Assembly (NCBI GenBank): GCA_000004985.1 | Contig: GG738885.1 | From: Naegleria gruberi | Lineage: Eukaryota | Length of the DNA stretch: 64,000 nt | Reading direction: 5' to 3' (one strand) | Shown here: piece after piece, positions 11,487 to 64,000 of the stretch | How positions within the stretch are numbered: position 1 is the stretch's first letter | Layout of the letters: each line of letters opens with the position of its first letter | Program-made: the position numbers and the translations under genes | Notes under the pieces: model-generated | Told to the model about the DNA's origin: nothing | The model's input: only the letters and a program-made list of their open reading frames with translations | The model's database searches: none

Positions 11487-11774
11487 ATATAAAGATTCTT
11501 ATTGGAATAGTTTAGAATAGTCATGTTTCTTTTATGAAATGGAGATTTTTAGGTGAAGAGATGGCATGGAAAAGGAAATAGTTGAAATTTAACCAAAGTG
11601 TCATATTAATACTGAAATTGTTTAATTATGAATAATAGTTGACAGATTGACATTTAAGGATGCATCAAGGAATGTCATGAATTTTAAAAAAGGTATTTAA
11701 AATATTATACGAAACCTTACCTCACTTTTTAATGTTAGACAGAACACATTTCAAAGAAACCTAAACGAAAAACA

Positions 11775-21180: not shown

Positions 21181-22869
21181 TTATTTATTGGAAGGAACTT
21201 TGAGAGAATCAAGATTAAGACCTGATTTACTGTCTTGAGCCTTCTTACTCTTTCTCACAGTTGGAAGTTTAATCTTGAGTGATTCCTTCTTTGTCTTTTT
21301 CTGGAATTCAACTGTTTGCTTGAATCGGTGATGGGTGTCAAGCATCAAAATACAAACTTCTCCTTCCACTGGATCGAAAATCATATCACTAAGATGTTCA
21401 TTCTCTCCTGATGCAAACAAATCTAATTGAGTTTTGACCTTGTCAGCTGCATGTTTGTTGATGTTGACAGATTTGTCACCATTGACATCTAGGAAATCAG
21501 TAAAGATTTCAAAAGCAACTTCGTACTTTTTCTTTTCAATTTCAATTAAATCTCTTTCAGTATAACCCTTTTTCTTCTTCTTTTTACCTTGGCTGTCACT
21601 ACTCATTGAAGTTGATGTTGAACCAGTGTCAGAAATGGCATCTGAAAAGGCGACAGTTAGCTCTTGATCATCATACAAGAATACTTGAATTTCAAATGAT
21701 TTCTCACATAAAATCTTGTAATCTGTAATCTTGTCAAGTAACAAGTAATTTTCCAAGCTCATTTCTTGTTTACAATATTCTTTGAATAATTTTCTAAGTT
21801 TGTTATCTCTCATGGTGTCCATAAGCATGTAGGCGTTTGCTTTCTTCAATCTCTTATTGTTGGCATTGTCAGAATTCATGGAAAAGGCAAGTGACATGAT
21901 GACTACTGGAATAACAATGACAATTGACACACAGACAATAATTAATTGCAAAGTGGTCATGGTAGTTGAGAAATCTCTATAGCTAACCTCCAAAGCCTTA
22001 AAATAATCAACAGAAGGCTTGAATTCCACTTCATACCAAGGTAAATAATCTTGATAGGTGTCAGAGCCAATTAAATTCATGGCAGCTGTAAAGTTTCCAG
22101 CTTTGACCATACTAATAGCTTGTCTCTCAACACTCATAGCCTTCACTGTCTTCATATCATAAATTGTTATATTATGTTTGACAGAATATCTCAATTCATT
22201 TGGCATGTATGCCAACATGTTATTAATTTCAGTATTGAACTTGGTTGAGTAATTTCCATAGAGATTGGCATAGCCAAGAGCAACTGTCTTGTTGTTATTG
22301 GCATAGACTGCTGAACGACATGTGTAAACCATCATGTCTCTATAATAGGAAGTGTCAAGATCCATATTTGAAATTGATGTCAATAAATTATTGCTGCCAA
22401 CGTAGCCAACAATAATGACAGTGAGTAATGCGATGAAACCAAGTAGATTAGCAGTTAAACTAGTCAAATTGACAAGCTTGAAGGATGACAGCTTGAGGGT
22501 AGTTCCACAACACATTCTGATGGCAAATAAAGAATTTGACGAGTGACTTGTCCTAGATCCAGTTCCAGATTTCTTATGGGAAGCAACAGAACTCTTCTTT
22601 TTAGACTCTTTAATGATGGTAGAAGCTGCTGGCTCTGTTGCAAAATTTGCTTTTGGTTTTGGACTGGTTGGAGTTGTTGGCGTTTGACATTTTTCCTTGA
22701 CAAGATGATCCATAGAATGACTCGAGCTAGAAAAGGATGAAGAAGCATCACCTGCTGTAAAATTTGTTGGAGTCAAGTAATAATCACAATTATGAACGTC
22801 TATTCCATTCAATTCTTCGATTGCTTTTTGCATGGAACTGTCAGCTGACACTGAAGTTGATTCTTGCAT
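21181..22869 (-). CDS. Two-TM extracytoplasmic-domain protein with C-terminal RGS domain (paralogue of 902..2407)
   Basis: 562-aa ORF with the same order: TM, ~150-aa helical ectodomain, TM, then an RGS domain (KLFKEYCKQEMSLENYLLLDKITDYKILCEKSFEIQ...KKYEVAFEIFTDFLDVNGDKSVNI...VCILMLDTHHRFKQTVEF). Confidence 0.7.
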   Translation of the reverse strand: MQESTSVSADSSMQKAIEELNGIDVHNCDYYLTPTNFTAGDASSSFSSSSHSMDHLVKEKCQTPTTPTSPKPKANFATEPAASTIIKESKKKSSVASHKKSGTGSRTSHSSNSLFAIRMCCGTTLKLSSFKLVNLTSLTANLLGFIALLTVIIVGYVGSNNLLTSISNMDLDTSYYRDMMVYTCRSAVYANNNKTVALGYANLYGNYSTKFNTEINNMLAYMPNELRYSVKHNITIYDMKTVKAMSVERQAISMVKAGNFTAAMNLIGSDTYQDYLPWYEVEFKPSVDYFKALEVSYRDFSTTMTTLQLIIVCVSIVIVIPVVIMSLAFSMNSDNANNKRLKKANAYMLMDTMRDNKLRKLFKEYCKQEMSLENYLLLDKITDYKILCEKSFEIQVFLYDDQELTVAFSDAISDTGSTSTSMSSDSQGKKKKKKGYTERDLIEIEKKKYEVAFEIFTDFLDVNGDKSVNINKHAADKVKTQLDLFASGENEHLSDMIFDPVEGEVCILMLDTHHRFKQTVEFQKKTKKESLKIKLPTVRKSKKAQDSKSGLNLDSLKVPSNK

Positions 22870-29790: not shown

Positions 29791-29840
29791 NNNNNNNNNN
29801 NNNNNNNNNNNNNNNNNNNNNNNNNNNNNNNNNNNNNNNN
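29791..29840. other. Assembly gap (run of 50 N)
   Basis: Literal n characters. Flanking annotations are unreliable. Confidence 1.
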
Positions 29841-31338: not shown

Positions 31339-31557
31339 GAACAAGTAGTGGATGCAACCAAGGATTTTTTGAATATTACAATGTAAATAACGAACGGTAT
31401 TTTTCAAGATGAGGAAAGTACAATAACAAACCTTCAAAATAAATCAAATTCTAACAAATGTCGAACAATAAGTTTTTATCCAAAATACATCAAGTTCTCT
31501 ACTTGAGATTAAGGAACGAGATCGTTCATTACGAAAATTCATATTCAGAACAATGTA

Positions 31558-31630
31558 GCCCGTCTAGCTCAGTCGGTAGAGCGCAAGGCTCTTAACCTTG
31601 TGGTCGTGGGTTCGACCCCCACGGTGGGCG
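31558..31630 (+). tRNA. tRNA-Lys (anticodon CTT)
   Basis: gcccgtctagctcagtcggtagagcgcaaggctCTTaaccttgtggtcgtgggttcgacccccacggtgggcg. It folds as a cloverleaf with A box (tagctcagtcggtaga), B box (ggttcgaccc) and a T-run downstream. Confidence 0.9.
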
Positions 31631-31763
31631 TTTCATATTTTAATATTTTTCGATTCATTTTCCTCCACCTTAATTCATATTTTAGGTCGACTCTCATTTT
31701 ATTATTTTAGTTTGTATCTCATTTGGCATTTAAGCAAACAGAAAGATTTATTGTTGATTTGAT

Positions 31764-38008: not shown

Positions 38009-39469
38009 TTATGGTTGTTGAGTAGTTTTCACAGATTGTACATTTGCAAGCATTTCCTTACAGAGCTCAGAGCTTTCGAATTGTAAATAGAGAGGAAACA
38101 CCATTGTACTAATCACATCCTTCTCCAAAGAATCGAACAAATCTTCCACATATCCTTCTTCCTCTATTCTCTTCTTTGCTGCATTAATTAGCTTTTTACT
38201 GGTATTCACCTCAAACACAGCATTATCCTCTAAAAAGGTATCGAAAATATACGAGGCCTTGACATGATGTTCTGGAATGATAATTTCTGAAGGCGGAATG
38301 AAGATGGTAATATCGCACGATTCATCCACAGCAAGATTTGATCCTGATTTCTTAATCAGATCGGAATTGTAGGTGAATTTCTTACAGGCCTTACATAAAA
38401 TCTTGTACTGAGCTATTTCTTCAATAAATATTGCCAATTCCAAACTGAAAATATTAGAGAGATAGGCTTTAAAGTATCTTCTCATTGTAGAATTTTCCAA
38501 AACTTCCTGTACAGTCAACTTATCTGATCCAACAGAGGCAATACTCACTCTTCCCTCCTCCACTTCTTCCTGCTGGAGAGTTTGTTCGATATTGAGAATG
38601 GATCTGGTTTTTCTAGCAGTTTGGAAAATGAAAAACATGTCAGGGAATAATTTCTTCAAATCATTCAAATATTGATCTGGTGATTGTTCTACTTCTGAAA
38701 CCAAATTGCTCGTCTCTGAACTGGCCTTTCCCAAATTGAAAATAAATTTACCATAATCAGGTCTTTCAGATAAATCCTTATAGAAATAACTAGTTTCGAA
38801 TGAACCATGACTAATAATATGCATTGTAAACAATGAAAACATATCCATATGTCTAATATCTTTCAATGAAGGTAATCTCAATTTCTTATCTTCCTTAAAC
38901 ATGAATTTCAGAATGGTTGGAAGTGCCAATGCATGTCTCACTAAACTTGCCTTTGGAACCATTAATAAACCATGTTTGATAGAGTTTGAGATTTTACAAT
39001 GCAAGAGATTGGTTCCTTTCATTGATTTTACGCACTTTTCATTGTTTTCTTGATGGCAAATCACTGGAACAACGTTCATCATTAAGAAACTGCTCAAATA
39101 ATTACTAATTGATGTGATGACATGTTGACACATGGGACAGCCGAACCATTTAATGACAATGAGGAGTACTCTGTGTTTTTCACTCAATCTGAGAACAGAA
39201 TGTCCACTTGGATGGACAATCATCTCTTCCAAAACATTCAAAATGTCAAAAGTTGCTGAGGCGTTTGACATGACCGTGTCAGCACTCTTGGAAATATCGG
39301 ATGAAGCATCTATTGTATTTCTTCTATTACATGTTTGTTCTCCAGCTAAATCTTGAGACAGGGAAACTTCGTCCTTGCTATGTCTTTTTAAATTTGATTG
39401 GGTGCCAACTGTCAAAAATCTAACGCTATTTGTTTTCTTTGAAGATGAAGCGGAGTTGGTATCACTCAT
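38009..39469 (-). CDS. Thioredoxin-fold (CxxC, AhpC/TSA- or PRXL2-like) domain + RGS-like domain protein
   Basis: N-terminal half has ...RVLLIVIKWFGCPMCQHVITSIS..., a WxxC(P)xC in a beta-alpha context. The C-terminal half is RGS-like (MRRYFKAYLSNIFSLELAIFIEEIAQYKIL...IPEHHVKASYIFDTFLEDNAVFEVN...FDSLEKDVISTMVFPLYLQF). Confidence 0.55.
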   Translation of the reverse strand: MSDTNSASSSKKTNSVRFLTVGTQSNLKRHSKDEVSLSQDLAGEQTCNRRNTIDASSDISKSADTVMSNASATFDILNVLEEMIVHPSGHSVLRLSEKHRVLLIVIKWFGCPMCQHVITSISNYLSSFLMMNVVPVICHQENNEKCVKSMKGTNLLHCKISNSIKHGLLMVPKASLVRHALALPTILKFMFKEDKKLRLPSLKDIRHMDMFSLFTMHIISHGSFETSYFYKDLSERPDYGKFIFNLGKASSETSNLVSEVEQSPDQYLNDLKKLFPDMFFIFQTARKTRSILNIEQTLQQEEVEEGRVSIASVGSDKLTVQEVLENSTMRRYFKAYLSNIFSLELAIFIEEIAQYKILCKACKKFTYNSDLIKKSGSNLAVDESCDITIFIPPSEIIIPEHHVKASYIFDTFLEDNAVFEVNTSKKLINAAKKRIEEEGYVEDLFDSLEKDVISTMVFPLYLQFESSELCKEMLANVQSVKTTQQP

Positions 39470-42104: not shown

Positions 42105-42406
42105 TTTATTAAGGCAATCATCATTAACAAAGAATAAAAAGACTACAGCACCACAGGTTCCCAAGTTGTCTCCAACCTCAGTACTGATGTGGCTCGACGA
42201 TGCTTAACTTCTCAAATCGGACGGGATGAGGTGCATTCATCGTGGTATGGCCGTAGCCATTCATAATCATAATACAATGATAATAAGGAATATTAAAAAT
42301 AGCCATGCAATACCTTAAATTGCGAAATATTAACTTCATGCTGTTTTGAAATTGTCTCTTACCTATTATTGAAAAACATGATTGCTGAATCGTACATGAA
42401 TAACAT

Positions 42407-45400
42407 TTATTCTTTCAGTTTCAAAGTAGAGCCAAGATTTTCTTTCAATTCAATTTTTTTGTTCATACTTTCATAACTGTCAGATAGGACAAAACGTGAG
42501 AAGGTATCGTCAATATTCATAATTATGGCACAATACAAATCTGAGAGAACTTCCTTAATTTCCTTATCGTTTTGTTGATTGTTTCTTACAGATTCGAATA
42601 TTTTATGGAAGGATTTCTTGGTATTGTGTGAAATGTTAAGTTCCATTGGAGAATTATTTTCAATAAATGTAGCTTTCCACTCTTCAAAATGTTTACACAA
42701 TTCTGTGGTTGCAGGTGTGTTGCCATTATTGATAGATTCGAATACTGGTGCAAGTTTAGTCCAGAATATTACATTTTCCAACGAATGCTCAGTTTTGGCA
42801 AATTGTTTGAAAATTTCACATAATGTTGGATTTTTAAGAATTTCATTCAGTTGATTATCTTCCTCAAGTATAGACTCCTCTTTCATTTTAGTATGCTTTC
42901 CACTAATTTTAGATTTAACTAATTCATAAATTGAGACTAGAGAAACTAATCCACCAAAACTCATAATTAACATGATATTATACAATAATTCGAAAGCAAT
43001 TTGAGCAGCAGATAAGCCCTGGTTTGAAGCTACAAGAAGTGAAAATCCAAGCCCATAAGTAATAATAAAGAATATAATGCTCGTAAAGAAGAAAATAAAT
43101 TCTTTTCTGAAAGCAAGATTGTCATTCACTATCAAGTAATTTTTGATTGGATTAATCACTAATTTCTTATCTTTTAAGGTCAGTTTGGTACTCAATTGAA
43201 CATATCTTAATTCCATATAAATATCAAAAAAGTGAATTACACAAACTAATAAAGACATGACCAAAACAAATGAAAATAATGAACCAGCCATGATTGATGC
43301 ATATTGACTTGAAGAGATTACTGCTGTTTGTTGTAAGGAAATGAAAATTACATAAAAAGCAATAAAAACACATGCAACAATCAAGTTAGCAATAATGGAG
43401 AAGGTTTTGCTTGAAAATAAAAGCTTAATCCACTTGAATTTCTTCTCATTGAGCACGTCAACTTCCTTCTCATCGAAAATAGCCATAATTTCATATAGAT
43501 ATCTAAATACAATGTATCGTGAGCTTAATATCAAATAGTTTAGAATAGATAAACAATAGAAAGTGGAAGCAATCATTGTAGAAACTTGTCTCACAATCAT
43601 TGAGTTTGGATTTTTTGCTAAACTTAGAGAATTTGCAATAATGTAAGTGAAAACAAGTTCAATTAATAGTGAAATTAACGCAAAGTATGGAATTATTCCT
43701 CTACTCTTGGTTGGTGTTTTCTTACATGTGACAATAACACCCACCAATGCAATTAATGTTAAAAATATTAGGAAACAACCAATAACAATGGATGCAATAA
43801 CACCACCTTCATTAGCTAATGTCACTTTGACGTCAATAAATGATGAAAATGAAGTTGTGTGATTACAATAGCAATTGACAACACTACTATTTTTAGAAAT
43901 TTCAGAAATGCATCCATCGGTAAGCCATTTCTTACTAGTTTCATCAAAAAACTTGCAAGAGACAACAAGTGAGGAATTATTTTGTACGCTTGACAAAATT
44001 TTAGAATCCACATTCAAGGAAAGTATAATAGGATTTGCCAAATTTGAAACTTGTAAGAATTGGCCATTTAAAATATATTTCAATTCAACAACTTTTGCAA
44101 TATTAACTGAAGAACCTTTGGAAACTTTGGAAATAATACTAGCATCAGTCAAATTACTTGTTAGTTCAGTAGCATTCGAATAGAGAGAAGCCAACTTTTC
44201 CATATTGAAATAAGTAATTGAACCAACTGAAACTCCTTCTCTTACCAGATCTGAAGGTGTAGAAATGGTTGTATTTCCGTCATTGAGATATGATGAAGAA
44301 TTGAGGTTTCTAACAACTGAAACAATAAATGAAGGTGTTTCAGTTTTAAAAATACTATCTTTCTCATCACTGGATTTGGAAGAAACGAGAATCAAGGTTT
44401 CAATTACAGAACTTGAAGAGTAATTTGAAGATACAATGACATTGGAATAGGCATTCAAAACTTGACTAATGGTTGTGTCTATAGCATTAGATGATTTCAA
44501 AGTAGATACTTCTAACTGGTTCAATTCAGATGAAATTGTCGAAATCAAATTCGAAACAGTGGAAACAATAGAAGTTGTAACTGATGATTGAGATGAAATG
44601 ACATTCAAAGCAGTAGAAACCTTCAATGTCTGATCAAGATCAGAGGTATTTCTCTGAACTGTTGACAATGCTTGTGTAACCATAGTCAAAACTGAAACAG
44701 CACTAGATGCTTTCGAATAAGTATCAGAATTTGAAGCAATACTAGCAATATCCTTTGTAGAAATCGAACCTAAGAATGACTCTGTCACTACATTTTCGTA
44801 TTTCATCACTTGAATTGTTTCAGCAGTTTTAAATGAATAAGAAATTCCTCCAAATGAAATTCTTAGTACTGCAGTAAAGTTTCCTTCAGAATTCAATGAA
44901 TATGAAACAATCATTGGATTGGCAGTCGATACAATAGTAGGGTTACCAATATTGGTATAAACACCATTGTTCGAAAACAGAACAGTATAAGTTGCACTTG
45001 TCAAATATGATTTGAGATTTGAATGATACTTGACTGCAATTAGCACAGTGGAATCAACAAAAGTGATAGTATTATCAAATTTGATTGAAATATCTGGTGA
45101 GCAATCAGTAGAATTACCAGAAAGTATCCATCCATCATCACAATAAGGAGTTAGTTTTCGAATAGCTAAATTGCCGTTGTCTGAAATATATATTGAGTTA
45201 TCATTTCTATCAACTGCTAGTGAATTAAGTCGGAACGAAAACAATGATGTCTTTCCATCTTTGTATCCTGATACACCAAACGTTCCTGCAATATTTGTTA
45301 TGAAACCAGATGATTTCTTTAACATTCGAATAGAACTTCTTGAATGTGATAAAATCAAATCACCATTTGATAAATAGAAAAAATCAGCAAGAGAAGTCAA

Positions 45401-47125
45401 TGGAGACTGAATAGCAATAACACTATTAGAAGAAGTATCCCAAATAGCACATGTTCCATTACCAACCAAAGTTATCAAGGTTCCATCATTTAAAATCTTA
45501 TTAATGGTACAATTAGAAGGAAAGTAAAATACAATACATCCATCGGTAGGATCAACTGCCAATCTTTCTGCCTTAAATGTTGTAGAATTGAAATACATGG
45601 AAATTGTTTGTGAACTAAGGTCAACCAATCTAATAGTTCCCAAATCAGCAACGTAAATCTTATTTTCATAAATGGCAATATCAGCAATGCTTCCAAATCC
45701 AGCATTGGAAAGAGGACCACCATCTCCATACCCTGAAGCACTGGTTGAGGTTGTTCCTACAACCACCACATAATTTCCAGTTATTTTGTCAATTTTCATA
45801 ATTAAACTTGGAACTGCATAATAAACTTCTCCATTCCATTCATCTATTGCACCAAATAGAACACCCAATGAAGAATTAGCAGCTGGTAAACCAATTGACA
45901 AGGCTGCAAAATCATCACTTCTTCCATCTCCTCCAATAATTGAAGAGTAACCACTTTCAAATTTGTGTAGGAAATATCTCTCAAAATCCAATCCATATAA
46001 TACTCCTGGTTTGGTTCTACTAGCAGCTATCAATGAAGTACCAACATACATAGTTGTAGATTTGACACTTGTTTGATTGTCACTTGAATATCCAATAAAT
46101 ATTTTGGATTTGCAATTACCTGCGATAGTTGTTTTGGTACCGTTAGTCAAATCAAACTTGTATATGTACTTTTGTTCTTCAGCAACTATTAATTTTCCAT
46201 TCAAATCAAAAAATGCAGAACTAGCTTTGATGACTGGAAGTAGAGTTTGGCTTGTGGAACCACCAGATAAATCATATTTGAAGATACTAGTCAATGCATT
46301 CACATATAGATTATTGTCTTGTTTGAACATTTTGTCAAAGAAAAATGGTGATGAGATGATTGGAGATAGAATAGTTCTGTTTCTCCAATTCATTAAACTG
46401 ACCTTTCCATTTTGTCCTTCAGAAATATAGAGTAAATCACCATTAACAAGCACATCTTGAGCTTGATATCCACTTCCTCCGTAAATAGTTTCAATGAATC
46501 CACTTGATATGTTAAATTGTCTTACACGGTTATTACCATAATCAGCAATGAATAGAATAGTTTCGTCTGGAGAAAGTTCCACTCCTAAAGGATTGTTTAA
46601 TCTAATGCTGTTCAAATCAGATGTACCATCACCAGAAAAATTTGCTGTTCCACATACTCCCACAAGTGTTGAAATGTTTCCATTCTTGATATCCAACTTT
46701 CGAATACATCCATTACCTTGTGCTATATACATGATTGTTTCGTCTTGTGTGAGCACCATCGAGAATGGAGATATTACACTGACAGAAAGTGCAGAACCGT
46801 CCCCAGGGATAGTTTTTCTATAATTACCAGCTACAAGACTAATAATTCCGTTGTTATCTATCTTTCTAATAGCAGCCATGGATGCATCAGCAATATACAT
46901 GGATCCATCTTTTGTTGGTATGATATCCTTGATGTAACTTAGGCATGACATGCTACTCTCGAATCCATCTCCAAATCTCTGTTGAAAAAGTTGTGAGTTT
47001 CCTCCTGCGAAAGTCGAAACTGAATACTTGACGTTCGGTGGTGTTTGTGTGTGAACGGTGGTCACCAACATACAAAGACATGCCAATAATAGAAGGATAT
47101 GACACGCCACTTGAAACACTTTCAT
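42407..47125 (-). CDS. Adhesion-GPCR-like receptor fused to RGS domain: signal peptide - NHL-type beta-propeller repeats - GPS motif - 7TM - C-terminal RGS
   Basis: Single 1572-aa ORF. Signal peptide MKVFQVACHILLLLACLCMLVTTVHT. NHL-like repeats (MYIADASMAAIRKID; IMYIAQGNGCIRKLD; ILFIADYGNNRVRQFN...). GPS consensus CKFFDETSKKWLTDGCISEISKNSSVVNCYCNHTTSFSSF (C-x-C-x-H-[LT]-[ST]-x-F) sits immediately before 7 hydrophobic helices. The C-terminal LCEIFKQFAKTEHSLENVIFWTKLAPVFES...LCKHFEEWKATFIENNSPMELNISHNTKK...LYCAIIMNIDDTFSRFVLSDSYESM is an RGS box. Confidence 0.75.
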   Translation of the reverse strand: MKVFQVACHILLLLACLCMLVTTVHTQTPPNVKYSVSTFAGGNSQLFQQRFGDGFESSMSCLSYIKDIIPTKDGSMYIADASMAAIRKIDNNGIISLVAGNYRKTIPGDGSALSVSVISPFSMVLTQDETIMYIAQGNGCIRKLDIKNGNISTLVGVCGTANFSGDGTSDLNSIRLNNPLGVELSPDETILFIADYGNNRVRQFNISSGFIETIYGGSGYQAQDVLVNGDLLYISEGQNGKVSLMNWRNRTILSPIISSPFFFDKMFKQDNNLYVNALTSIFKYDLSGGSTSQTLLPVIKASSAFFDLNGKLIVAEEQKYIYKFDLTNGTKTTIAGNCKSKIFIGYSSDNQTSVKSTTMYVGTSLIAASRTKPGVLYGLDFERYFLHKFESGYSSIIGGDGRSDDFAALSIGLPAANSSLGVLFGAIDEWNGEVYYAVPSLIMKIDKITGNYVVVVGTTSTSASGYGDGGPLSNAGFGSIADIAIYENKIYVADLGTIRLVDLSSQTISMYFNSTTFKAERLAVDPTDGCIVFYFPSNCTINKILNDGTLITLVGNGTCAIWDTSSNSVIAIQSPLTSLADFFYLSNGDLILSHSRSSIRMLKKSSGFITNIAGTFGVSGYKDGKTSLFSFRLNSLAVDRNDNSIYISDNGNLAIRKLTPYCDDGWILSGNSTDCSPDISIKFDNTITFVDSTVLIAVKYHSNLKSYLTSATYTVLFSNNGVYTNIGNPTIVSTANPMIVSYSLNSEGNFTAVLRISFGGISYSFKTAETIQVMKYENVVTESFLGSISTKDIASIASNSDTYSKASSAVSVLTMVTQALSTVQRNTSDLDQTLKVSTALNVISSQSSVTTSIVSTVSNLISTISSELNQLEVSTLKSSNAIDTTISQVLNAYSNVIVSSNYSSSSVIETLILVSSKSSDEKDSIFKTETPSFIVSVVRNLNSSSYLNDGNTTISTPSDLVREGVSVGSITYFNMEKLASLYSNATELTSNLTDASIISKVSKGSSVNIAKVVELKYILNGQFLQVSNLANPIILSLNVDSKILSSVQNNSSLVVSCKFFDETSKKWLTDGCISEISKNSSVVNCYCNHTTSFSSFIDVKVTLANEGGVIASIVIGCFLIFLTLIALVGVIVTCKKTPTKSRGIIPYFALISLLIELVFTYIIANSLSLAKNPNSMIVRQVSTMIASTFYCLSILNYLILSSRYIVFRYLYEIMAIFDEKEVDVLNEKKFKWIKLLFSSKTFSIIANLIVACVFIAFYVIFISLQQTAVISSSQYASIMAGSLFSFVLVMSLLVCVIHFFDIYMELRYVQLSTKLTLKDKKLVINPIKNYLIVNDNLAFRKEFIFFFTSIIFFIITYGLGFSLLVASNQGLSAAQIAFELLYNIMLIMSFGGLVSLVSIYELVKSKISGKHTKMKEESILEEDNQLNEILKNPTLCEIFKQFAKTEHSLENVIFWTKLAPVFESINNGNTPATTELCKHFEEWKATFIENNSPMELNISHNTKKSFHKIFESVRNNQQNDKEIKEVLSDLYCAIIMNIDDTFSRFVLSDSYESMNKKIELKENLGSTLKLKE

Positions 47126-47366: not shown

Positions 47367-48866
47367 TTAAAGCAATGAACAATTTGATTTTTGTGGGTTG
47401 GCTGGTTGATTTGGTTGAACTGGCTGTGTTGGTTGACCATTGTTGGTGGTGGCAGAGGAAAGATTTTTGGTTGATATTTTAATACTTCCCACAGTATTTC
47501 CATTGAATAGGTTTGGCAATTGAAGGGTGTATTCCATGAGTTTGATTGTCACTATTTTCACTCTCTTATCACTGATATCATTCAGTGTGATCGATTGTTC
47601 CTTTTTCTCTTGAATTGTTGTAACAGTTTCCAAACAAACAACTGTAAATTTCAGACTCTCCTTTTCAATACTGACTGATGTGTATTTGTTTGCTTTCAAA
47701 TCTTTTCGTTCGAGAGAGGAAAGGGAATGAATGGTTTCTACATGTTCTGGAGTGAAGTCTTGATTGAGATAGGTGGCTATCAGTTTCTCAACAAGACCAA
47801 TCTTTTTATGTGTGGATAGTTGATTATAGAGAATGTCAAAACTCATTTCTAAACCATACTTTAACAATTCAAATGGAGTATTGAGATAATTCTGGGTGAC
47901 GAATACAGGAATTACACTCAACCTAGTTTCAGAGCTTAACATTTCATAGTAAAATACATCAACCAGAGCAAGATATTGTGCCTGATCTAAATCTTCAGGA
48001 ACTCTATAATTTTCAAAATAATATTTTGGCATTCTGTGTTGTAAAATTGTGCAAAGCATTAAATCACAAACTGTTGATGTGAGTCCAAAATGTGTAATCA
48101 TAGGTTCTATACCAAATACTTGATCTGACACATCACTTGATGATCTGCAGTCCAATCCAGGATAGTGAGATACACAGCCATTATACAAATAAAACGTTTG
48201 TCCACTTGCCAATATGAAATTATTAGGTATAGAAGGTTTTCTTTTAAAAACAATTCTCAATGTAAATCTTTCATAGAAATTGATAAGACATTGCTTATTC
48301 TTACTCGAATAGGGTTTAAATTCAGTATCAATAATTTTGTTAATGCCATTATTCACCGATTTTCCACAATCCTCCATCGCTTTCACACGTCCTCTAAGTT
48401 TTCCTCTCAAACTCTTTACAAAACTCGATTTGAAAATCTCCCTCTCCACAATCAATGTATTTCCATCATCCAGAATCAATTTGAAATGCAAATCATCGAC
48501 CAAATATTGTCCCCACTCACACACATTATCTTTCAGTGAATTTGAAAAATTATTCATAACATAGGTCGTATAGGAGGGATGAAAAATCTGTAGCCTATAC
48601 TTGGTCTCCTCACATTCTCTCTGTGAGGAAGGCTTTAAAAAGGGTGAAAGTTTTGTAACCTCGTTGTTTTTTGTTGTGCCTTCTTCCTCTTGCAAAATCT
48701 TTTCATCACCATCATGATGAATAATATTATTATTATCGATATTATTAATTAAATTATTATTGGAGTTCGGATCATGTTGATTATTGTTTAAATGTTGCAT
48801 GTGAATGGTTTCTAACTTTTCAATGACTTTTAATAATTTGGGATGAACACAATAGAGAGAAAGCAA
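47367..48866 (-). CDS. Hypothetical protein (499 aa) ending in a CaaX prenylation box (CSLL)
   Basis: Long ORF. The C-terminus ...QKSNCSLL* fits C-a-a-L (geranylgeranylation-type CaaX). Confidence 0.5.
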   Translation of the reverse strand: MLSLYCVHPKLLKVIEKLETIHMQHLNNNQHDPNSNNNLINNIDNNNIIHHDGDEKILQEEEGTTKNNEVTKLSPFLKPSSQRECEETKYRLQIFHPSYTTYVMNNFSNSLKDNVCEWGQYLVDDLHFKLILDDGNTLIVEREIFKSSFVKSLRGKLRGRVKAMEDCGKSVNNGINKIIDTEFKPYSSKNKQCLINFYERFTLRIVFKRKPSIPNNFILASGQTFYLYNGCVSHYPGLDCRSSSDVSDQVFGIEPMITHFGLTSTVCDLMLCTILQHRMPKYYFENYRVPEDLDQAQYLALVDVFYYEMLSSETRLSVIPVFVTQNYLNTPFELLKYGLEMSFDILYNQLSTHKKIGLVEKLIATYLNQDFTPEHVETIHSLSSLERKDLKANKYTSVSIEKESLKFTVVCLETVTTIQEKKEQSITLNDISDKRVKIVTIKLMEYTLQLPNLFNGNTVGSIKISTKNLSSATTNNGQPTQPVQPNQPANPQKSNCSLL

Positions 48867-48895: not shown

Positions 48896-48990
48896 TTGCT
48901 AGTGAATCTTGATCTCTCTGTTAGATCAAGATTCACTAGATTGCTTGATCTAACAGAGAGACTAGCAATCTAGTGAATCTTGATCTAACA
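48896..48990. repeat. Dense nested palindrome / inverted + direct repeats of AGTGAATCTTGATCT
   Basis: agtgaatcttgatct(48901-15)-ctctgtt-agatcaagattcact(48923-37). Then cttgatctaacagagag, the reverse complement of ctctctgttagatcaag, and a second direct copy tagtgaatcttgatct at 48971-86. It lies between two minus-strand genes. Confidence 0.6.
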
Positions 48991-49034: not shown

Positions 49035-50847
49035 TCAATCAATTATTCCTAAAAGTCTCTTTGAAACATATTGTAGCATTTCCTTATCTTTTTGCATTTG
49101 AATTGAAGCATGTGGGAAGGCATGAATATTCTGTTTGATTGCATGCCACACTAGTTCTCTATCTGATTTGTATTGTTGCTCCATAAATTCCAAACACAGT
49201 CCATTAATATTCAATATTTGAATCAGAAATTCTCTACTAAAATTCACAGAAGCACAAGGTCTGAAGAATGTATAGTCATGTGAAACAGCTTCTAGCACCA
49301 ACTCAACATGTTGAACAAAGAAGGGAAAGCAATCAAGTTGGACGAATATTTGAGGATTCTTCTTGAGTGCCTTCATTAGGAAATCTCTGTCTGAGAGAAG
49401 ATTTCTGTGAATAAAGAAAAACTTGTCGTGTGAATTGATTGCTTCGAGTCCAATCTCTGGATCTTTTTGTAGTGGCTCCTCTGCAAATCCTAGTGTTGTG
49501 CTTTGATTTCTGATGGCTGCTAGGACTATTTCTCGATCTTGTCTCTGAGATTTTGGAGCATATTTGAGTGATTCTCCAAGAGTATTCACAGCTCGTAGAG
49601 TGAAATTTCTATCCGAATCCATATGTTTCCTCAATTGAATGCAAAATGTTGGATAAATTCCAATAGGTGCCTCTGAAAGTTTGATTCTCTGTAAAATGTC
49701 ACACACTGTTTCCTTATCAAAATGACAATCACAAAAGGTAAGAGCTGATAGATTATTTTTCACAGCTTTCAAGATAATCTCCCTATTGGTTCTTAGAGAT
49801 TGGCTCACATATTGAATAGATTGCCCATAGTGTGAAACTGCTGCCAAGGCCACATCCTTATCTGCTTTCATCGAAAAGTGCAGATACGACAGAGCCAGAG
49901 GACTTGTCTTGACAGCTATTAAAGCCATTTCCTTATCAGCTTGAAATTGTGGAGCAAATTGTATTGCTGCACCATCGTCAATAACAGCAGTCATTACAAC
50001 TAGCCTGTCGTTCCTCAAATCCTCACTAGCATACCTCAAATCCATTCCATTCTTCCTCACTGCATCTAATACAATTTGTTTATCATCCACAAAAAACAAT
50101 GCCTTTTTCCAAATAATATTATTCCAATAAAGTATTACATTCAATTTAATAATCAAAAAATTAAATCAAAATTCGTTACATTATTAATTTCAAAACAGAA
50201 CTCACCTTTTTCAAAACTCGTGCCTTATATTTAACAGCATATTCTACAAATTCTCTATCATTAAACCATACATTATTGAAAAAGTCAATAGTGACCAAAT
50301 ATTTCGATTTCAAGGCAGTAAACACAATCTCTCTATCCAATCCAAAACAATGATCCAAAAAGATTGCATTTCCATCACTCTTCACAGCTTCCAATACTAA
50401 TTCTCTATCCTTCTTCAATGTATCACTTGCAAAACTCAAGTGATGTCCACTCATCTTTACAGCTTGCATCATAAAATCCCTATCCGAGCAATAAAAAGGA
50501 ATAATTCCCTTCTTTTCATAATATTCATCCAATTCATTCAATCCCAATCTATTCTTCAATGCAATCAGCAACAAATCCCTCCTATTGTATATATATTTAA
50601 TCAGTGGCCTAAAAGCAACATCTCCCTTCGTTTCCTCCACAATTCTCTGAATAACATTCACATCCCTCAACAACATGTATCGATCATCACCACCACCTGT
50701 TACACCTTCATCATTATCATTATCACCATCATCATTATCATCAATAAATTGCAAAGCCTTTGTATTCACTCGACATGCATGCACAATCGCTTCCCGATCA
50801 TTGGCGAATAACAAGACGAGAGAAGGGAACTCATCAATGTGCGCCAA
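49035..50847 (-). CDS. DUF4116-repeat protein (2 exons: 50176..50847 and 49035..50156)
   Basis: Many ~35-aa repeats of the DUF4116 type (...DREIVLAAIRNQSTTLGFAEEPLQKDPEIGLEAIN..., ...DVALAAVSHYGQSIQYVSQSLRTNREIILKAVKNN..., ...DRELVLEAVKSDGNAIFLD...). GTGAGT donor after ...KARVLKK (50176) and acceptor ...aaaaag before ALFFVDDKQIVLDAVRKNG. Confidence 0.6.
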
Positions 50848-53990: not shown

Positions 53991-54110
53991 CGCCGTTTAA
54001 ATAATAAAGAGGTTATACCACCTTTTGAACAAATATCACTTTTCTCGCTTTTATTGGAAGGTTTTTAGTCTTAATAATTTTTTATTGAGGTTTTTGGGTA
54101 ATGATACGTA

Positions 54111-54183
54111 GCCCGTCTAGCTCAGTCGGTAGAGCGCAAGGCTCTTAACCTTGTGGTCGTGGGTTCGACCCCCACGGTGGGCG
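54111..54183 (+). tRNA. tRNA-Lys (anticodon CTT), identical duplicate of 31558..31630
   Basis: Same 73-nt sequence. The downstream ~20 nt (tattttaatatttt) is also shared with the first copy. Confidence 0.9.
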
Positions 54184-54802
54184 ATTCGTATTTTAATATT
54201 TTCCCTATTTTCGTTTGTATATATCTCAGGTCTTTGCGATTCTCTCCTTTCTTTTTACATTTCTAACCAAATCCATTTTAAATATAATCCTAAATATAAT
54301 CTTCTAATTATTCACTTTAGGATATCTTCTTTCTGTTCCTAATTATTGATCATAATTGTTTGGTAAGAATGATGGCAACGATTTCCTTCTACTGATCATG
54401 ACATTTTTTTTAATATTAAAAATTGTAATCTTTCCTCCTTTCCTCATCGTCATCATTGCCCAGAAAGCTTCAATAAAAATTCTTTGAACTGTCTTTTAAT
54501 TCACACAAGAATAATCCCTTTCCAATTTTATCAAAACAATAACTTGGTATTGTGGTTTTCGAGAATCTGAGGAAGTGGAGTATTTAGGAATAGGGCACAA
54601 AGCACTACCAGGTAAGCTATTAAAAACTAGTGTAGCGATTCTTGCTTATTGCCTATGGCGGACTGATGTGGGGATGTATCCGAAGTAAGTGGCGGAAAAG
54701 TTAACACAAGTCTGAAACCAGTGGAACCACTTCCAATCGATCTTTTCCTCGCGCCAAATTCTTTTTCAAAAATTTAAATTCAAAAAAAGGAACAACACTT
54801 TT

Positions 54803-59603: not shown

Positions 59604-62372
59604 TTACAATTGATAAGGTAACCAAATTCTGTCTGGAATTGGTGGTTCATGATCTGCCAAGAAGGCAGTTGAGGAAGTTGGATTTAACATCATGAGTTGC
59701 ATGTCAAATTCATTAATTCCAACACCACTCATATTGAATGGACAAAGACAAGGTCCAAATGATCCAGTATTCGAAATATTCATGCTACTTTCAGGTAAAT
59801 TAGAAAGTGGAGCATCTTTAGAGCTGAGAATTCTCTTTCCATCTTTTAGAATTCCCAATCGAATCCAGAAACATCTGTCATATAATTTCAAAAGCCACAA
59901 GTCCCATTTTCCATCATTAGTTGTTTTGAAATAGTCCTTTCCTTCACTTGCTGATCCAATTTTAGAATCCAAATCAAAGTAGACCTTATCGAGCTCTGCA
60001 TGACTCGAAAAGACAATGAAATTCTTATCTTCAGGTACTTCATCCGAATTGGATGTCTTTTGTTGTAAATTCTTGTAAGTGTACTTGTTTCTGATACTTT
60101 CTGGAGCATATTCAATGTTACCAACGAGAGTTTTCTCATCTTCACCCAATCTGGAGTAGGCCTCTCCTGAAACAATATTTTCGACACCTTGTTGTTGAAG
60201 CTCCATGGCCATCTTCTTTCCAAATAGAGCTTCCTTAACAGGTTGATTCAAATAAAAGGCCATATCTGAAAAACCATACTTTTCAATTCTGTCCAACAAT
60301 TTCTGAACTCCCATGCCAAATGGATATTGTAAAACGTGATGAGCTGGAATGCCCTTCTTCTTGTCCTCAACTTTCGTCAATGGAACAAGTTCGAGTGCCT
60401 TGATAACATCCTGAACAAAGTGTTGATGATTGCAAGTTTTCAAATTGTACACATTGGTACCATTCCACAAACTACAAACTTCTGAGAGTTTGGATAAGAG
60501 TGCAGTAATATTCTTCTCTCCTTCCACTTTCTTAAGTGTAATGTAGTGGAAATGAGGATTGAAACGAAGCAGACCTTGAGGAGGTTTTCTAGATGGAATA
60601 ACGAGTGAATTCTCCTTCCATTCTAAAAACCAATTTCCAATCATGATACCAGTTCTCAATAATTTGTACCTATTCGTGTCTTTCATTTCAATCATGAATG
60701 ATTCGCTAAATTCAAAAACTACCAATTGACATTGTAAATAAGCTTCTTCCTTCTTTGAAGATCTACCAAACAATTTTGCCAAATTTGATTTCTTCTCTGG
60801 TTCGCACTCTTCACCATCATTGAGAGCAATGGTTCCAGACTTCTCACCAGTTGGATTATCAAAGAAGAGATAATTGTAACAATCAGGAAGTGCCAAATTC
60901 TCTGACATGAAAATCTTTTCCCTGTGTGAAAAAATTCTTCTATCAATCGGAGCAAGTTTCTTGAAAACATTCGAAACCAAAACTCTTTCCAACTCGCTCA
61001 GCTGCTTAAAATCAATCAAGAGAGGTAAACGTTCTGACAATTGAACACTCACAAAATCAATAGTAATATTTGATGTAGTGGCATGTGTCTGCTCAGAATC
61101 TGGAAACATCTTTTCAATATTATTTGTTTGTTGTGAAGCTGCCTCTGAACTAGAAGTTGCATCAAATTTCACATCAAATAATTTCTTCTTCTTTCCACTA
61201 CTATTCATCTTCTTTTGAATAATTGTATCAAAAGATGAAGGATCTGTCAATAACAAGTAAATATTCTTATATCTTGACTTGTACTTTCCCAATTGTTCAA
61301 TTAATATCAAATCATTATTCAAAATTTGTGGGAAAACTGTTTGTCTAAGTGATTTCTCATCAATTGGTCGAACACAATTATCAAGATCACTATTAACCAG
61401 ACAGGAAACTAGACGATCACGACTCTTCTTTTTTTCTTTACCATTTGATGAAGAGGAGGTGGAAGAGGATGAATTATTCATCATTATATTTTCCATCATG
61501 CTATTACTTCCAATGGAATCGAGTGATGGACGAATCATACTATTCGAATCTGATGATGAAGATGAATTAAGATCTGCTTCCTCTGTTGAATTATTGATCA
61601 TGGGAATGATGCTTCCATTTAGTGCCATTGATTTTCTTGTTGTATATCCAACAGGTTTTGGTGGTCGATAATTGACAGGTGAAACATCACTTGGTGTTGT
61701 GGGCGTAGTTGAATTTGAAGAGAATGGGGATTGATTTCCAAAGGATGTTTGTGGACTGTTGGGTGAATGTCCTTCACTAGCAGAATTTGAATGTTCAACT
61801 GCACTAATAGGATTATTCGAATTTGGACGAATCATTGATGAATCTCTTCTAGTGACTACAATACCAGTTCGATTACCGAATCTACTTGTTTTTTCCAAAT
61901 TTTCTGATGAAGCAGATTTCCTTGTTATTGCTACTGAATCCTTTCTTTGATTACTTGGAGAAATACTTGGAGAAGAAACATTATTCGAAACTGTTGTTCT
62001 CGTTGTTAAAACTCCTCCCATTTCTACATTTTCCAACTTGTCTTGAATTTCCATTAGATTCTTCTGATGAGAAATATGTTTTTGAATTGATGAATAGATT
62101 AGTTCGGCTTCGTCTTGGGAAATAATATTCTCCAAATCTGAAACTTCGAATTGGACAAGAGCAGAGCCATCCCACGATTCTTGTTTTAGAGTTGTTAATG
62201 TTGATTGTGAAAATCTGTAATTTAAAGTTCTTTCCAAGTGTCGAAGAAAGGAAAGAAAATCACCAGTTGACCAACGAGAAATTGGTTTAGATTCATCAAA
62301 TGGAAGATCTTCCGATAATGTATCTTTTGTAAATAATAAGTGTTTGTGCAATGGGTGAAGTGAGGATGACAA
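59604..62372 (-). CDS. Large hypothetical protein (922 aa), SAM-like N-terminus, S/N-rich middle, conserved-looking C-terminal ~450 aa
   Basis: Long ORF. N-terminal WSTGDFLSFLRHLERTLNYRF...LVQFEVSDLENI is SAM-like. No catalytic motif recognised. Confidence 0.5.
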   Translation of the reverse strand: MSSSLHPLHKHLLFTKDTLSEDLPFDESKPISRWSTGDFLSFLRHLERTLNYRFSQSTLTTLKQESWDGSALVQFEVSDLENIISQDEAELIYSSIQKHISHQKNLMEIQDKLENVEMGGVLTTRTTVSNNVSSPSISPSNQRKDSVAITRKSASSENLEKTSRFGNRTGIVVTRRDSSMIRPNSNNPISAVEHSNSASEGHSPNSPQTSFGNQSPFSSNSTTPTTPSDVSPVNYRPPKPVGYTTRKSMALNGSIIPMINNSTEEADLNSSSSSDSNSMIRPSLDSIGSNSMMENIMMNNSSSSTSSSSNGKEKKKSRDRLVSCLVNSDLDNCVRPIDEKSLRQTVFPQILNNDLILIEQLGKYKSRYKNIYLLLTDPSSFDTIIQKKMNSSGKKKKLFDVKFDATSSSEAASQQTNNIEKMFPDSEQTHATTSNITIDFVSVQLSERLPLLIDFKQLSELERVLVSNVFKKLAPIDRRIFSHREKIFMSENLALPDCYNYLFFDNPTGEKSGTIALNDGEECEPEKKSNLAKLFGRSSKKEEAYLQCQLVVFEFSESFMIEMKDTNRYKLLRTGIMIGNWFLEWKENSLVIPSRKPPQGLLRFNPHFHYITLKKVEGEKNITALLSKLSEVCSLWNGTNVYNLKTCNHQHFVQDVIKALELVPLTKVEDKKKGIPAHHVLQYPFGMGVQKLLDRIEKYGFSDMAFYLNQPVKEALFGKKMAMELQQQGVENIVSGEAYSRLGEDEKTLVGNIEYAPESIRNKYTYKNLQQKTSNSDEVPEDKNFIVFSSHAELDKVYFDLDSKIGSASEGKDYFKTTNDGKWDLWLLKLYDRCFWIRLGILKDGKRILSSKDAPLSNLPESSMNISNTGSFGPCLCPFNMSGVGINEFDMQLMMLNPTSSTAFLADHEPPIPDRIWLPYQL

Positions 62373-62788
62373 ATTTTAATGTATAACACACAATTAGTTT
62401 CGAATAGAGATCAATATAAAGTTATTCGAAACTAGAATACAAACCTTCTGAAGAAGCAGAAATAAACATTTTGCAAATTGATTACCTCTGAGTTACACAC
62501 AAAACACAAAAACCTCGATTTTTTTTTAATTCTTCTTCTGTGATGCAACTACATACTCGATTGACACCTGACAGTGAAATTTGAAAATAGGAATCATTTG
62601 CTCAGTCTATCTGACACGCTACAATTAAAAATCCTCTACGCAAAACTCTTCTCCTTCCTTATCAAAGCACCGAAGATGAAATTGGTAGCAAACGAAAGAG
62701 CATTTCTTCTTGACTTGGTTGACTCGACAATTCAGTACAATGTTCGATATTTTCAAATGAAAATGATAACGAACTGGAAAGAATAATT

Positions 62789-63288
62789 GATTAGAATCAG
62801 GGTTCTGCACATGAATATTGAATTTGGAAATAAACCAATATATTATTTGTTTTTGTTTTCAGTCATATACATATCAATTTTCAACTATTAATATAGAACC
62901 CATACTTTTATTTTTGAAAAGTTTTACTTTGCACGCCTCAGCACATTGTGCTAAGGTGATTAGAACCAAGCTAGAACCTGAGGCATTCTATTCAACCAGT
63001 GGTCAGTGTTCTTTTTGTTTAATTAATATTCAATAATCAATATTATTGCTATTACTCTTGTTTGTAGAACGGTATGTTTTTGATTTACATCATAACTTGC
63101 AATTAAACATCCCGGCACGATTCATTCACAAAACATCATCAGGATGTTTTTTTTTCATCAAATTTTTTAAATTTTATTAGTAACGGTAGTTTTGTGTGAT
63201 TCATGGCTCATCAAGTGTCTTTTTCTTATTTCATCGTAACCTCACAATGTGAGGTTTTGTGCAGAACCCTGATTAGAATGGATCTCGC
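62789..63288. mobile_element. MITE-like non-autonomous element (~500 bp) with ~20-bp terminal inverted repeats
   Basis: Left end gattagaatcagggttctgcaca (62789-62811). Right end tgtgcagaaccctgattagaat (63267-63288). The perfect 17-nt inverted core is AATCAGGGTTCTGCACA. The interior is AT-rich with no long ORF. Confidence 0.45.
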
Positions 63289-63689
63289 TTTGGTGTTTGA
63301 TTGGATATTATGATAATCATCACTATTGATTACAAAGAATAGTATAGTTTAGGATAAATATTGTTGAGCGAAAAGAATGAGAAAGATCTCTCTTGGACGT
63401 TTCGTGTAAAATGACTTCGACTAGTATTTATGCATGTTGTGTTGACTATTGTTGAAAGGTTGTATCGCTGGTACAGAGTTTCGAATAAGTGTTTGGAGAA
63501 ATAGGCTAAAATACCGACCCTTCAACTCGTGTCGACACATCTCAAAAAGAATCACTACCATTTACATTATTTAATATCCAATTTGTCAGACCTACAATTT
63601 TGTAAATTATAAAAATGCAGTGTAAAAAAATATTTAAAAATTATTACAAATTTCAATAAAAATTATTTATAAATTAAACAAATGAATTT

Positions 63690-64000
63690 CGATGATCTTG
63701 ATTCACTTGTTTGTAAGGTTGTTCAGCATCTCTTTTCGGTTCATCCCACATAAATACTAATTTGGAACATTCATTACTTCCAAATTTGGCACCATCTCTA
63801 ATTGCTGCTTCGAATGGATGACTCGTTTGCACCCCAACTTGTTCATTCTTTTCCTGTTCTCTTCGAACTGAGAATTCGAGTGAGTTTTTTTCAGCAAGTT
63901 CGAGGATTCGTTTACATTCGCCTGAACCTTTCTCACCTCCTTCTTGAATTGCTTTGAAATCTTTATAAAATCAAAGATTGGAAAGTGAGAATAATATTTC
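63690..64000 (-). CDS. Partial gene running off the window end (minus strand)
   Basis: Reverse strand reads ...DFKAIQEGGEKGSGECKRILELAEKNSLEFSVRREQEKNEQVGVQTSHPFEAAIRDGAKFGSNECSKLVFMWDEPKRDAEQPYKQVNQDHRN with no stops. Function not recognised. Confidence 0.3.

What the first reader, a model, noticed from the sequence alone, without database searches (positions are those of the whole stretch)
62789..63288. MITE-like 500-bp element with ~20-bp terminal inverted repeats
GATTAGAATCAGGGTTCTGCACA at 62789-62811 is matched in inverse orientation by TGTGCAGAACCCTGATTAGAAT at 63267-63288 (17-nt perfect core). The interior is AT-rich and non-coding. It lies in an intergenic region near the window end.
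Basis: seen in the sequence. Interest (0 to 1): 0.5.

Follow-up and report, generated by a model that had tools for sequence, protein, structure and literature searches.

The report
Small hAT-like transposon insertion in Naegleria
This is a 474-bp non-coding "cut-and-paste" transposon remnant sitting between two genes of the amoeba Naegleria gruberi, with 14-bp inverted ends and an 8-bp duplication of its insertion site; it is a real but ordinary kind of mobile element.

Summary
The inverted repeat is real, but the right arm lies at 63258-63279, not 63267-63288. A perfect 14-bp terminal inverted repeat (CAGGGTTCTGCACA, 62798-62811 / TGTGCAGAACCCTG, 63258-63271) is directly flanked by a perfect 8-bp direct repeat (ATTAGAAT, 62790-62797 and 63272-63279). 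That direct repeat is a target-site duplication, and being nearly palindromic it mimicked a longer TIR.

It is the only TIR-plus-8-bp-TSD structure in the window. In shuffled sequence such structures occur 0.013 times per window for 10-nt TIRs and never for 12 or more. The 474-bp interior is AT-rich and non-coding, and it repeats the TIR core AGAACC three more times.

The window is Naegleria gruberi NEG-M. An 8-bp TSD, a short TIR, a CAGGG terminus and an nTnnnnAn target all fit the hAT superfamily; P or another 8-bp-TSD superfamily is not excluded.

The verdict is a genuine non-autonomous DNA transposon insertion, most likely hAT-type, with the "MITE" label provisional. Interest is low.

The parts
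62790..62797 (.). Left copy of the 8-bp target-site duplication, ATTAGAAT
   Evidence: Read directly. It is identical to 63272-63279 and abuts the TIR. It is the only such structure in the window. It fits the hAT target pattern nTnnnnAn (PMC10368747).
62798..62811 (+). Left terminal inverted repeat, CAGGGTTCTGCACA (14 bp, perfect)
   Evidence: The terminus CAGGG fits the hAT terminal motif YARNG (PMC3014272). It matches the hobo end CAGAGAACTGCA at 9 of 12 positions (PMC9682801; comparison).
62812..63257 (.). Non-coding, AT-rich interior (446 bp, 29% GC)
   Evidence: The longest ATG ORF is 26 aa. A six-frame translation found no protein homolog among 5.8 billion sequences. There is no Rfam family at or near threshold.
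62895..62900 (+). Internal copy of the TIR core motif AGAACC (TAGAACCC)
   Evidence: AGAACC/GGTTCT occurs 5 times in the element against 0.19 expected from the window frequency.
62962..62967 (+). Internal copy of the TIR core motif AGAACC (TAGAACCA)
62973..62978 (+). Internal copy of the TIR core motif AGAACC (TAGAACCT)
63240..63254 (+). Perfect 7-bp-stem hairpin CCTCACAATGTGAGG, separated from the right TIR by 3 nt; role unknown
   Evidence: Sequence; it forms in both MFE folds.
63258..63271 (-). Right terminal inverted repeat, TGTGCAGAACCCTG (14 bp, perfect complement of the left TIR)
63272..63279 (.). Right copy of the 8-bp target-site duplication, ATTAGAAT
59604..62471 (-). Context, not part of the element: downstream gene. 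It is the 922-aa ORF plus a short first exon whose ATG is at about 62471; the element lies 327 bp upstream of that ATG.
   Evidence: ORF. It is 61-62% identical to N. lovaniensis and N. fowleri proteins. tblastn of P0001 places residue 37 at about 62285 and finds no exon beyond 62500.
63677..63964 (-). Context, not part of the element: terminal ORF (about 96 aa) of the upstream minus-strand gene, with its stop at 63674-63676
   Evidence: Translation. No Pfam hit and no protein homolog found, so its status as a gene is inferred only.

Best explanation
This is a single insertion of a 474-bp non-autonomous class II (cut-and-paste) DNA transposon in an intergenic region of Naegleria gruberi NEG-M. 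The element proper is 62798-63271. Its ends are perfect 14-bp terminal inverted repeats (5'-CAGGGTTCTGCACA ... TGTGCAGAACCCTG-3'). It is flanked by a perfect 8-bp duplication of the target, ATTAGAAT.

Inferred mechanism:
- A transposase encoded elsewhere binds the TIRs, and probably also the three internal AGAACC repeats.
- It excises the element by double-strand breaks and joins its 3' ends to a target cut with an 8-bp stagger.
- Repair of the stagger produced the duplication.

The 8-bp TSD, the short TIR, the YARNG-type terminus (CAGGG), the hobo-like TIR and a target that fits nTnnnnAn make the hAT superfamily the most likely source. The intact TIRs and TSD suggest a fairly recent insertion.

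Shown: the TIRs, the TSD, the lack of coding capacity, the motif enrichment and the host species. Inferred: mobility, the superfamily, and trans-mobilisation by a transposase encoded elsewhere.
For: - Perfect 14-nt TIRs abutted by perfect 8-bp direct repeats.
- This is the only TIR(8 nt or more)+TSD(8) structure in the 64-kb window. Shuffles give 0.35, 0.013, 0 and 0 per window for TIR lengths 8, 10, 12 and 14.
- The TSD reading explains all 22 bases of each 'arm' without mismatch. The pure-TIR reading leaves 2 mismatches.
- The interior is non-coding and AT-rich.
- The TIR core AGAACC occurs 5 times against 0.19 expected, with TAGAACC occurring three times in the interior.
- The host is N. 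gruberi NEG-M, because exact window proteins equal XP_002674272 and others. This species is known to carry DNA transposons, few of them classified (PMC12344493; PMC3164196).
- hAT rules: 8-bp TSDs and TIRs of 10-25 bp (PMC3942097); the YARNG terminus (PMC3014272); the nTnnnnAn target (PMC10368747); the hobo end CAGAGAACTGCA, matching at 9 of 12 positions.
- Without the element and one TSD copy the intergenic spacer would be 720 bp. The N. lovaniensis ortholog has a 635-bp spacer with no similarity to the element.
- It is not an E. coli IS, plasmid or phage sequence.
Against: - No second copy was seen anywhere: none in the window, none in JGI metagenome, GTDB genome or IMG/VR contigs with a paired-TIR pattern. 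The 13 hits of an 18-mer end probe were chance matches in high-GC contigs with no partner TIR.
- No ORF resembling any frame of the element exists in the protein collection, which includes a metagenome assembly of a 98%-identical Naegleria strain. This argues weakly against a high copy number.
- No transposase domain is present in the window.
- The superfamily call rests on one TSD and 14 bp of TIR. The P superfamily shares the 8-bp TSD and a similar terminal motif (PMC2820524). Zisupton also makes 8-bp TSDs (PMC12730594).
- No empty site was observed.
Confidence: 0.75

Rival explanations
1. It is a non-autonomous TIR transposon, but of another superfamily that also makes 8-bp duplications: P, Zisupton/KDZ, Novosib, Merlin or an atypical Mutator. 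The cut-and-paste mechanism would be the same, with a different transposase.
For: The 8-bp TSD is shared by Zisupton (PMC12730594). One paper attributes a YARNG-like terminal motif to the P superfamily (PMC2820524). From my own memory, Feschotte and Pritham give CANRG and a 7-8 bp TSD for P, which CAGGG also fits. N. gruberi is documented to hold a Mutator-type MuDRF element (PMC3164196). No transposase could be linked to this element.
Against: The TIR resembles hobo (9 of 12 positions) and not the P end CATGATGAAATAACAT. The target fits the hAT pattern nTnnnnAn. MuDRF and Mutator elements make 9-bp TSDs and usually have long TIRs. hAT is the most widespread 8-bp-TSD superfamily.
Confidence: 0.15
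2. It is a chance inverted repeat in AT-rich intergenic DNA, with no biological meaning.
For: A perfect 17-nt inverted repeat within 1 kb is expected 0.07 times per 64-kb window, which is dozens per 41-Mb genome. It is single-copy in all the sequence that could be searched.
Against: The 14-nt TIR is abutted on both sides by a perfect 8-bp direct repeat. This combination appeared in none of 150 shuffles for TIRs of 12 nt or more, and at 0.013 per window for 10 nt. Extrapolation gives about 0.01-0.05 per genome. The TIR core motif is also enriched 26-fold inside the element.
Confidence: 0.04
3. It is a host functional element rather than a transposon. Two options are a pair of inverted protein-binding sites bracketing a promoter or regulatory module for the 922-aa gene, or a structured non-coding RNA whose 5' and 3' ends pair.
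For: It lies 327 bp upstream of a gene's ATG. The 511-nt stretch 62780-63290, which includes the element and its flanks, folds better than shuffles on both strands (z = -4.5 and -3.8). It contains local hairpins followed by T runs.
Against: There is no Rfam match, the best being E = 0.14 and outside the element. The low fold energy is largely the terminal repeat itself, and it is equal on both strands, as expected for DNA-level symmetry. Nothing is conserved at the orthologous N. lovaniensis spacer. A functional palindrome does not predict that the outer 8 bases form a perfect direct repeat.
Confidence: 0.04
4. It is an assembly or cloning artefact, such as a bacterial insertion sequence that hopped into a clone, or a mis-join.
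For: The window is a draft scaffold with an N gap at 29791-29840. Bacterial IS insertions also create TSDs.
Against: There is no similarity to any complete E. coli genome, plasmid or phage record. It has no coding capacity. Its composition is typical of the host (31% GC against 33%).
Confidence: 0.02

Closest known systems
hAT-superfamily non-autonomous elements / hAT MITEs (e.g. maize Ds, Drosophila hobo-derived MITEs, Mar, BuT2 MITEs)
   Same: The TSD is 8 bp and the TIR is short, 14 bp within the 10-25 bp range. The terminus CAGGG fits YARNG, and the target ATTAGAAT fits nTnnnnAn. The size is a few hundred bp with an AT-rich, non-coding interior. It sits next to genes, and TIR-related motifs are repeated inside.
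   Different: No family members and no hAT transposase partner have been shown. The host is a heterolobosean amoeba, for which I found no description of hAT MITEs in the searchable literature. The internal AGAACC repeats are central rather than strictly subterminal.
Drosophila hobo (TIR CAGAGAACTGCA)
   Same: The first 12 bases of the TIR match at 9 positions (CAG.G..CTGCA), and the TSD is 8 bp.
   Different: The interiors are unrelated and the host is very distant. The resemblance may only reflect the generic hAT end consensus.
P-superfamily non-autonomous elements
   Same: The TSD is 8 bp, and the 5-nt terminal motif is compatible (and my own memory of CANRG).
   Different: The P end CATGATGAAATAACAT is unlike this TIR. 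The AT-rich target fits the hAT pattern. No THAP transposase was shown.
MuDRF (Mutator-type) element reported in N. gruberi
   Same: It is a DNA transposon of the same host species (PMC3164196).
   Different: MuDRF makes 9-bp TSDs and encodes a transposase. This element has an 8-bp TSD, short TIRs and no ORF.

Membership tests
MITE (miniature inverted-repeat transposable element) | Short (under about 800 bp) with no coding capacity | tested here: met
   It is 474 bp and its longest ATG ORF is 26 aa. No protein homolog was found for any frame.
MITE (miniature inverted-repeat transposable element) | Terminal inverted repeats | tested here: met
   14/14 perfect, at 62798-62811 and 63258-63271.
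MITE (miniature inverted-repeat transposable element) | Target-site duplication directly flanking the TIRs | tested here: met
   ATTAGAAT, 8/8, on both sides.
MITE (miniature inverted-repeat transposable element) | Multi-copy family of similar copies with different TSDs | not testable with these tools
   It is single-copy in the 64-kb window. Public-collection scans found nothing real. The absence of protein-level echoes in a related strain's metagenome assembly hints at a low copy number.
MITE (miniature inverted-repeat transposable element) | AT-rich and located near genes | tested here: met
   The interior is 29% GC. It lies 327 bp upstream of a gene's ATG.
hAT superfamily | 8-bp TSD | tested here: met
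   rule from PMC3942097 and PMC12730594.
hAT superfamily | Short TIRs (10-25 bp) with terminal motif YARNG | tested here: met
   The TIR is 14 bp and its terminus is C-A-G-G-G; rule from PMC3014272 and PMC3942097.
hAT superfamily | Target preference nTnnnnAn (Ac/Hermes type) | tested here: met
   ATTAGAAT has T at position 2 and A at position 7 (PMC10368747). This is one site in an AT-rich genome, so it is weak evidence.
hAT superfamily | Autonomous relative with the same termini encoding a BED/DDE/hATC transposase | not testable with these tools
   No transposase domain was found in any window ORF of 150 aa or more, and the rest of the genome was unreachable.
P superfamily | 7-8-bp TSD and a compatible terminal motif | tested here: met
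   The motif is as cited in PMC2820524 and from my own memory (CANRG). This means the feature does not separate P from hAT.
P superfamily | THAP-domain transposase partner | not testable with these tools
   Same limitation as for hAT.
Mutator / MuDR | 9-11-bp TSD, usually long TIRs | tested here: not met
   The TSD is 8 bp (10 bp only if 2 bases of the right TIR are double-counted), and the TIR is 14 bp. MuDRF in N. gruberi makes 9-bp TSDs.

The most novel reading that the evidence does not exclude
The perfect TIRs and TSD could mean that N. gruberi harbours a recently or currently active hAT-type transposase that mobilises a so-far undescribed family of short elements. That would make this the first documented MITE family in Heterolobosea. 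An endogenous cut-and-paste system could also be turned into an insertion tool for an organism that is hard to manipulate genetically. Its internal AGAACC repeats would then be the candidate transposase-binding sites.
Probability: 0.25. Interest if true: 0.35.

Novelty: new member of a known kind. Interest (0 to 1): 0.18.

Why it matters
On its own it matters little: it is one small DNA-transposon insertion in a TE-poor genome. Reported figures are 5.1% repeats (PMC6125883) and few repeats classifiable as known TEs (PMC12344493).

There are three modest points of value:
- It corrects the anatomy, giving exact element boundaries, TIR and TSD. These can seed a genome-wide search and a repeat-library entry for Naegleria, whose repeats are mostly unclassified.
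- Intact ends hint at recent activity of an 8-bp-TSD transposase in this lineage.
- The insertion sits in the promoter-proximal spacer of a gene that appears to be missing from the NEG-M protein set.

Tried and rejected
- **22-23-nt TIR with no TSD:** rejected. It leaves 2 mismatches, and the flanks (AATAATTG / GGATCTCG) show no duplication. The 14-nt TIR plus 8-bp TSD reading explains every base.
- **17-nt TIR with a 2-bp 'AG' TSD, or a 10-bp TSD (TGATTAGAAT):** considered. The first relies on a 1-in-16 coincidence. The second makes the TIRs non-terminal.
- **Known RNA family:** Rfam at gathering thresholds and at E up to 10 found nothing in the element.
- **Conservation in the N. lovaniensis orthologous spacer:** none. 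The N. fowleri locus was not on record.
- **Reaching the N. gruberi genome through window proteins:** failed three times.
- **Using the 98%-identical strain in metagenome ERR1078381:** it exists and its 5.7-kb overlap with the window has no large indels. No contig covering the element's neighbourhood could be found, because the 922-aa gene has no close homolog in the collection.
- **Concatenated six-frame translation of the element plus the upstream ORF as a protein query:** no hits.
- **Public DNA scans:** the paired-TIR pattern gave 0 in metagenome, genome and viral contigs. The 18-mer end gave 13 chance hits.
- **Second copy or fragment in the window by blastn and nhmmer:** none.
- **Bacterial IS, vector or phage origin:** none.
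- **Autonomous partner in the window:** no transposase domain.
- **Literature on hAT elements or MITEs in Naegleria:** nothing found. Arensburger 2011, Feschotte and Pritham 2007 and the N. gruberi genome paper were not held.
- **Third homology search:** deliberately not spent. A generic hAT query would not surface Naegleria hits.

Full report
**1. The observation**

The right arm, TGTGCAGAACCCTGATTAGAAT, is at 63258-63279, nine bases lower than reported. The 17-nt core AATCAGGGTTCTGCACA is perfect. These are its only two occurrences in the window at up to three mismatches. The 22-nt arms are 20/22 complementary.

A perfect 17-nt inverted repeat within 1 kb is expected 0.07 times per 64-kb window under a second-order Markov model. 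That is unusual for one window, but dozens would occur by chance in a 41-Mb genome. The repeat alone therefore proves little.

**2. What the sequence really shows**

The two mismatches sit at positions 4-5 from the outer end of each arm. Reading the outer eight bases as a direct rather than an inverted repeat removes them. ATTAGAAT occurs at 62790-62797 and again at 63272-63279. Between them lie perfect 14-bp terminal inverted repeats, CAGGGTTCTGCACA (62798-62811) and TGTGCAGAACCCTG (63258-63271). ATTAGAAT is nearly its own reverse complement (ATT..AAT), which is why it looked like six more bases of TIR. The element proper is therefore 62798-63271, 474 bp, with an 8-bp target-site duplication.

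I scanned the window for every perfect TIR of at least 8 nt, 50-3000 bp apart, that is abutted by a perfect 8-bp direct repeat. This is the only one. In 150 shuffles such structures occur 0.35 times per window for 8-nt TIRs, 0.013 for 10-nt, and never for 12 or 14 nt. Extrapolated, that is a few hundredths per genome at most, so the structure is not chance.

**3. The interior**

- It is 29% GC, against 33% for the window.
- Its longest ATG-initiated ORF is 26 aa.
- A concatenated six-frame translation found no homolog among 5.8 billion proteins.
- Rfam finds nothing in it.
- The hexamer at the heart of the TIR, AGAACC/GGTTCT, occurs five times in 474 bp against 0.19 expected. Besides the two TIRs there are three TAGAACC copies, at 62894, 62961 and 62972. 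Repetition of end-related motifs inside an element is what one expects of transposase-binding sites. That role is inferred, not shown.
- The 511-nt stretch 62780-63290, which includes the element and its flanks, folds better than shuffles on both strands. This is what a DNA-level terminal repeat gives and is not evidence for an RNA.

**4. Where it sits**

Ten intronless window ORFs were looked up, and nine are exact matches to Naegleria gruberi NEG-M proteins (XP_002674272 and others) on a 362,555-bp scaffold. The window is eukaryotic in other ways too: 33% GC, with a dispersed 5S rRNA gene and tRNA genes.

The element lies in a 1202-bp spacer between two minus-strand genes.
- Downstream is a 922-aa ORF. 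It is preceded by a short first exon with its ATG at about 62471, so the element is 327 bp upstream of that ATG. The ORF's homologs in N. lovaniensis and N. fowleri are 61-62% identical. tblastn shows no exon beyond 62500.
- Upstream is a roughly 96-aa terminal ORF ending at 63674.

Removing the element and one TSD copy leaves a 720-bp spacer. The orthologous N. lovaniensis spacer is 635 bp and shares nothing with the element. This is compatible with an insertion in the N. gruberi lineage but is weak evidence.

**5. Mechanism**

The anatomy is that of a non-autonomous cut-and-paste DNA transposon: short, non-coding, with TIRs and a TSD. The inferred history has three steps. A transposase made elsewhere bound the ends. 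It excised the element from a donor site. It then integrated the element at a target cut with an 8-bp stagger, whose repair duplicated ATTAGAAT. The intact TIRs (14/14) and TSD (8/8) suggest a fairly recent event, though 22 compared positions bound the age only loosely.

**6. Which superfamily**

hAT elements are defined in the literature I could read by these features:
- 8-bp TSDs and TIRs of 10-25 bp (PMC3942097; PMC12730594);
- a YARNG terminal motif (PMC3014272);
- for Hermes, an nTnnnnAn target (PMC10368747).

This element meets all of them: an 8-bp TSD, a 14-bp TIR, the terminus CAGGG, and T at position 2 and A at position 7 of the TSD. Its TIR also matches the hobo end CAGAGAACTGCA at 9 of 12 positions, whereas the P-element end CATGATGAAATAACAT is unlike it (PMC9682801).

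These are resemblances on one copy. The P superfamily shares the 8-bp TSD and a compatible 5-nt terminus (PMC2820524). Zisupton also makes 8-bp TSDs. The Mutator-type element documented in N. gruberi makes 9-bp TSDs (PMC3164196) and does not fit. I therefore rate 'TIR transposon insertion' as very likely and 'hAT' as the leading but unproven assignment.

**7. What could not be tested**

The defining MITE property is a multi-copy family with a related autonomous element. It remains open.
- There is no second copy or fragment in the window.
- No transposase domain occurs in any window ORF of 150 aa or more.
- The N. gruberi assembly could not be reached through exact-protein look-ups.
- A 98%-identical Naegleria strain is present in metagenome run ERR1078381, but no contig for this neighbourhood is in the collection.
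- Paired-TIR scans of JGI metagenomes, GTDB genomes and IMG/VR found nothing. An 18-mer end probe hit only unrelated high-GC contigs.
- The lack of any protein-level echo of the element in that related strain's assembly hints at a low copy number.
- The element is not an E. coli IS, plasmid or phage sequence, which argues against a cloning artefact.

**8. Novelty and verdict**

DNA transposons are known in N. gruberi, but few of its repeats are classified (PMC12344493; PMC6125883). I found no description of hAT elements or MITEs in Naegleria in the searchable literature. I could not consult Repbase, so the element may already be catalogued there.

This is a new member of a well-known kind. Interest is low (0.18). 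The most novel reading still open is a currently active hAT-type system in Naegleria.

Noticed in passing
window 48897-48990: A dense nest of perfect inverted repeats lies in the short spacer between ORFs 47367-48866(-) and 49035-50156(-, seven DUF4116 repeats). Either strand folds into a perfect hairpin of about 27 bp (-45 kcal/mol, z about -7), and the segments can pair in mutually exclusive ways. This is a far stronger palindrome than the finding itself. Its nature is unknown.
   Followed up: partly
window 31555-31649 and 54108-54202: tRNA-Lys(CTT) is present twice as a 95-nt unit that is 98% identical, including about 20 nt of 3' flank. This suggests a duplicated tRNA gene unit rather than two independent genes.
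   Followed up: no
window 42140-42258 (-): A dispersed 5S rRNA gene (101.5 bits) lies between protein-coding genes, next to a 1572-aa protein with NHL, GPS and RGS domains.
   Followed up: no
window 59604-62471 (-) and 63677-63964 (-): The 922-aa gene has clear orthologs in N. lovaniensis and N. fowleri, but no N. gruberi protein for it is in the 5.8-billion-protein collection. The ORF upstream of the element has no protein match at all. Both may be missing from the NEG-M annotation.
   Followed up: partly
window 6489-12230: There is a tandem family of small genes with weak RWP-RK domain hits (below Pfam's gathering cut-off). A 230-nt repeat at 6751, 8004, 9284 and 11983 is 63-74% identical between copies.
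   Followed up: no
window 902-2407, 17792-19666, 21181-22869, 38009-39469, 42407-47125: Five ORFs with RGS-domain hits lie in one 64-kb window (the hit for 902-2407 is marginally below Pfam's gathering cut-off). ORFs 902-2407 and 21181-22869 share a 300-nt stretch at 71% identity.
   Followed up: no
L002/L003 (ENA ERZ929261, Logan ERR1078381) versus window 1-5729: A metagenome run contains a Naegleria strain that is 97.9-98.5% identical at the DNA level to NEG-M over 5.7 kb, with only small indels. It is a possible source for empty-site tests.
   Followed up: partly
window 29791-29840: A 50-N assembly gap.
   Followed up: no
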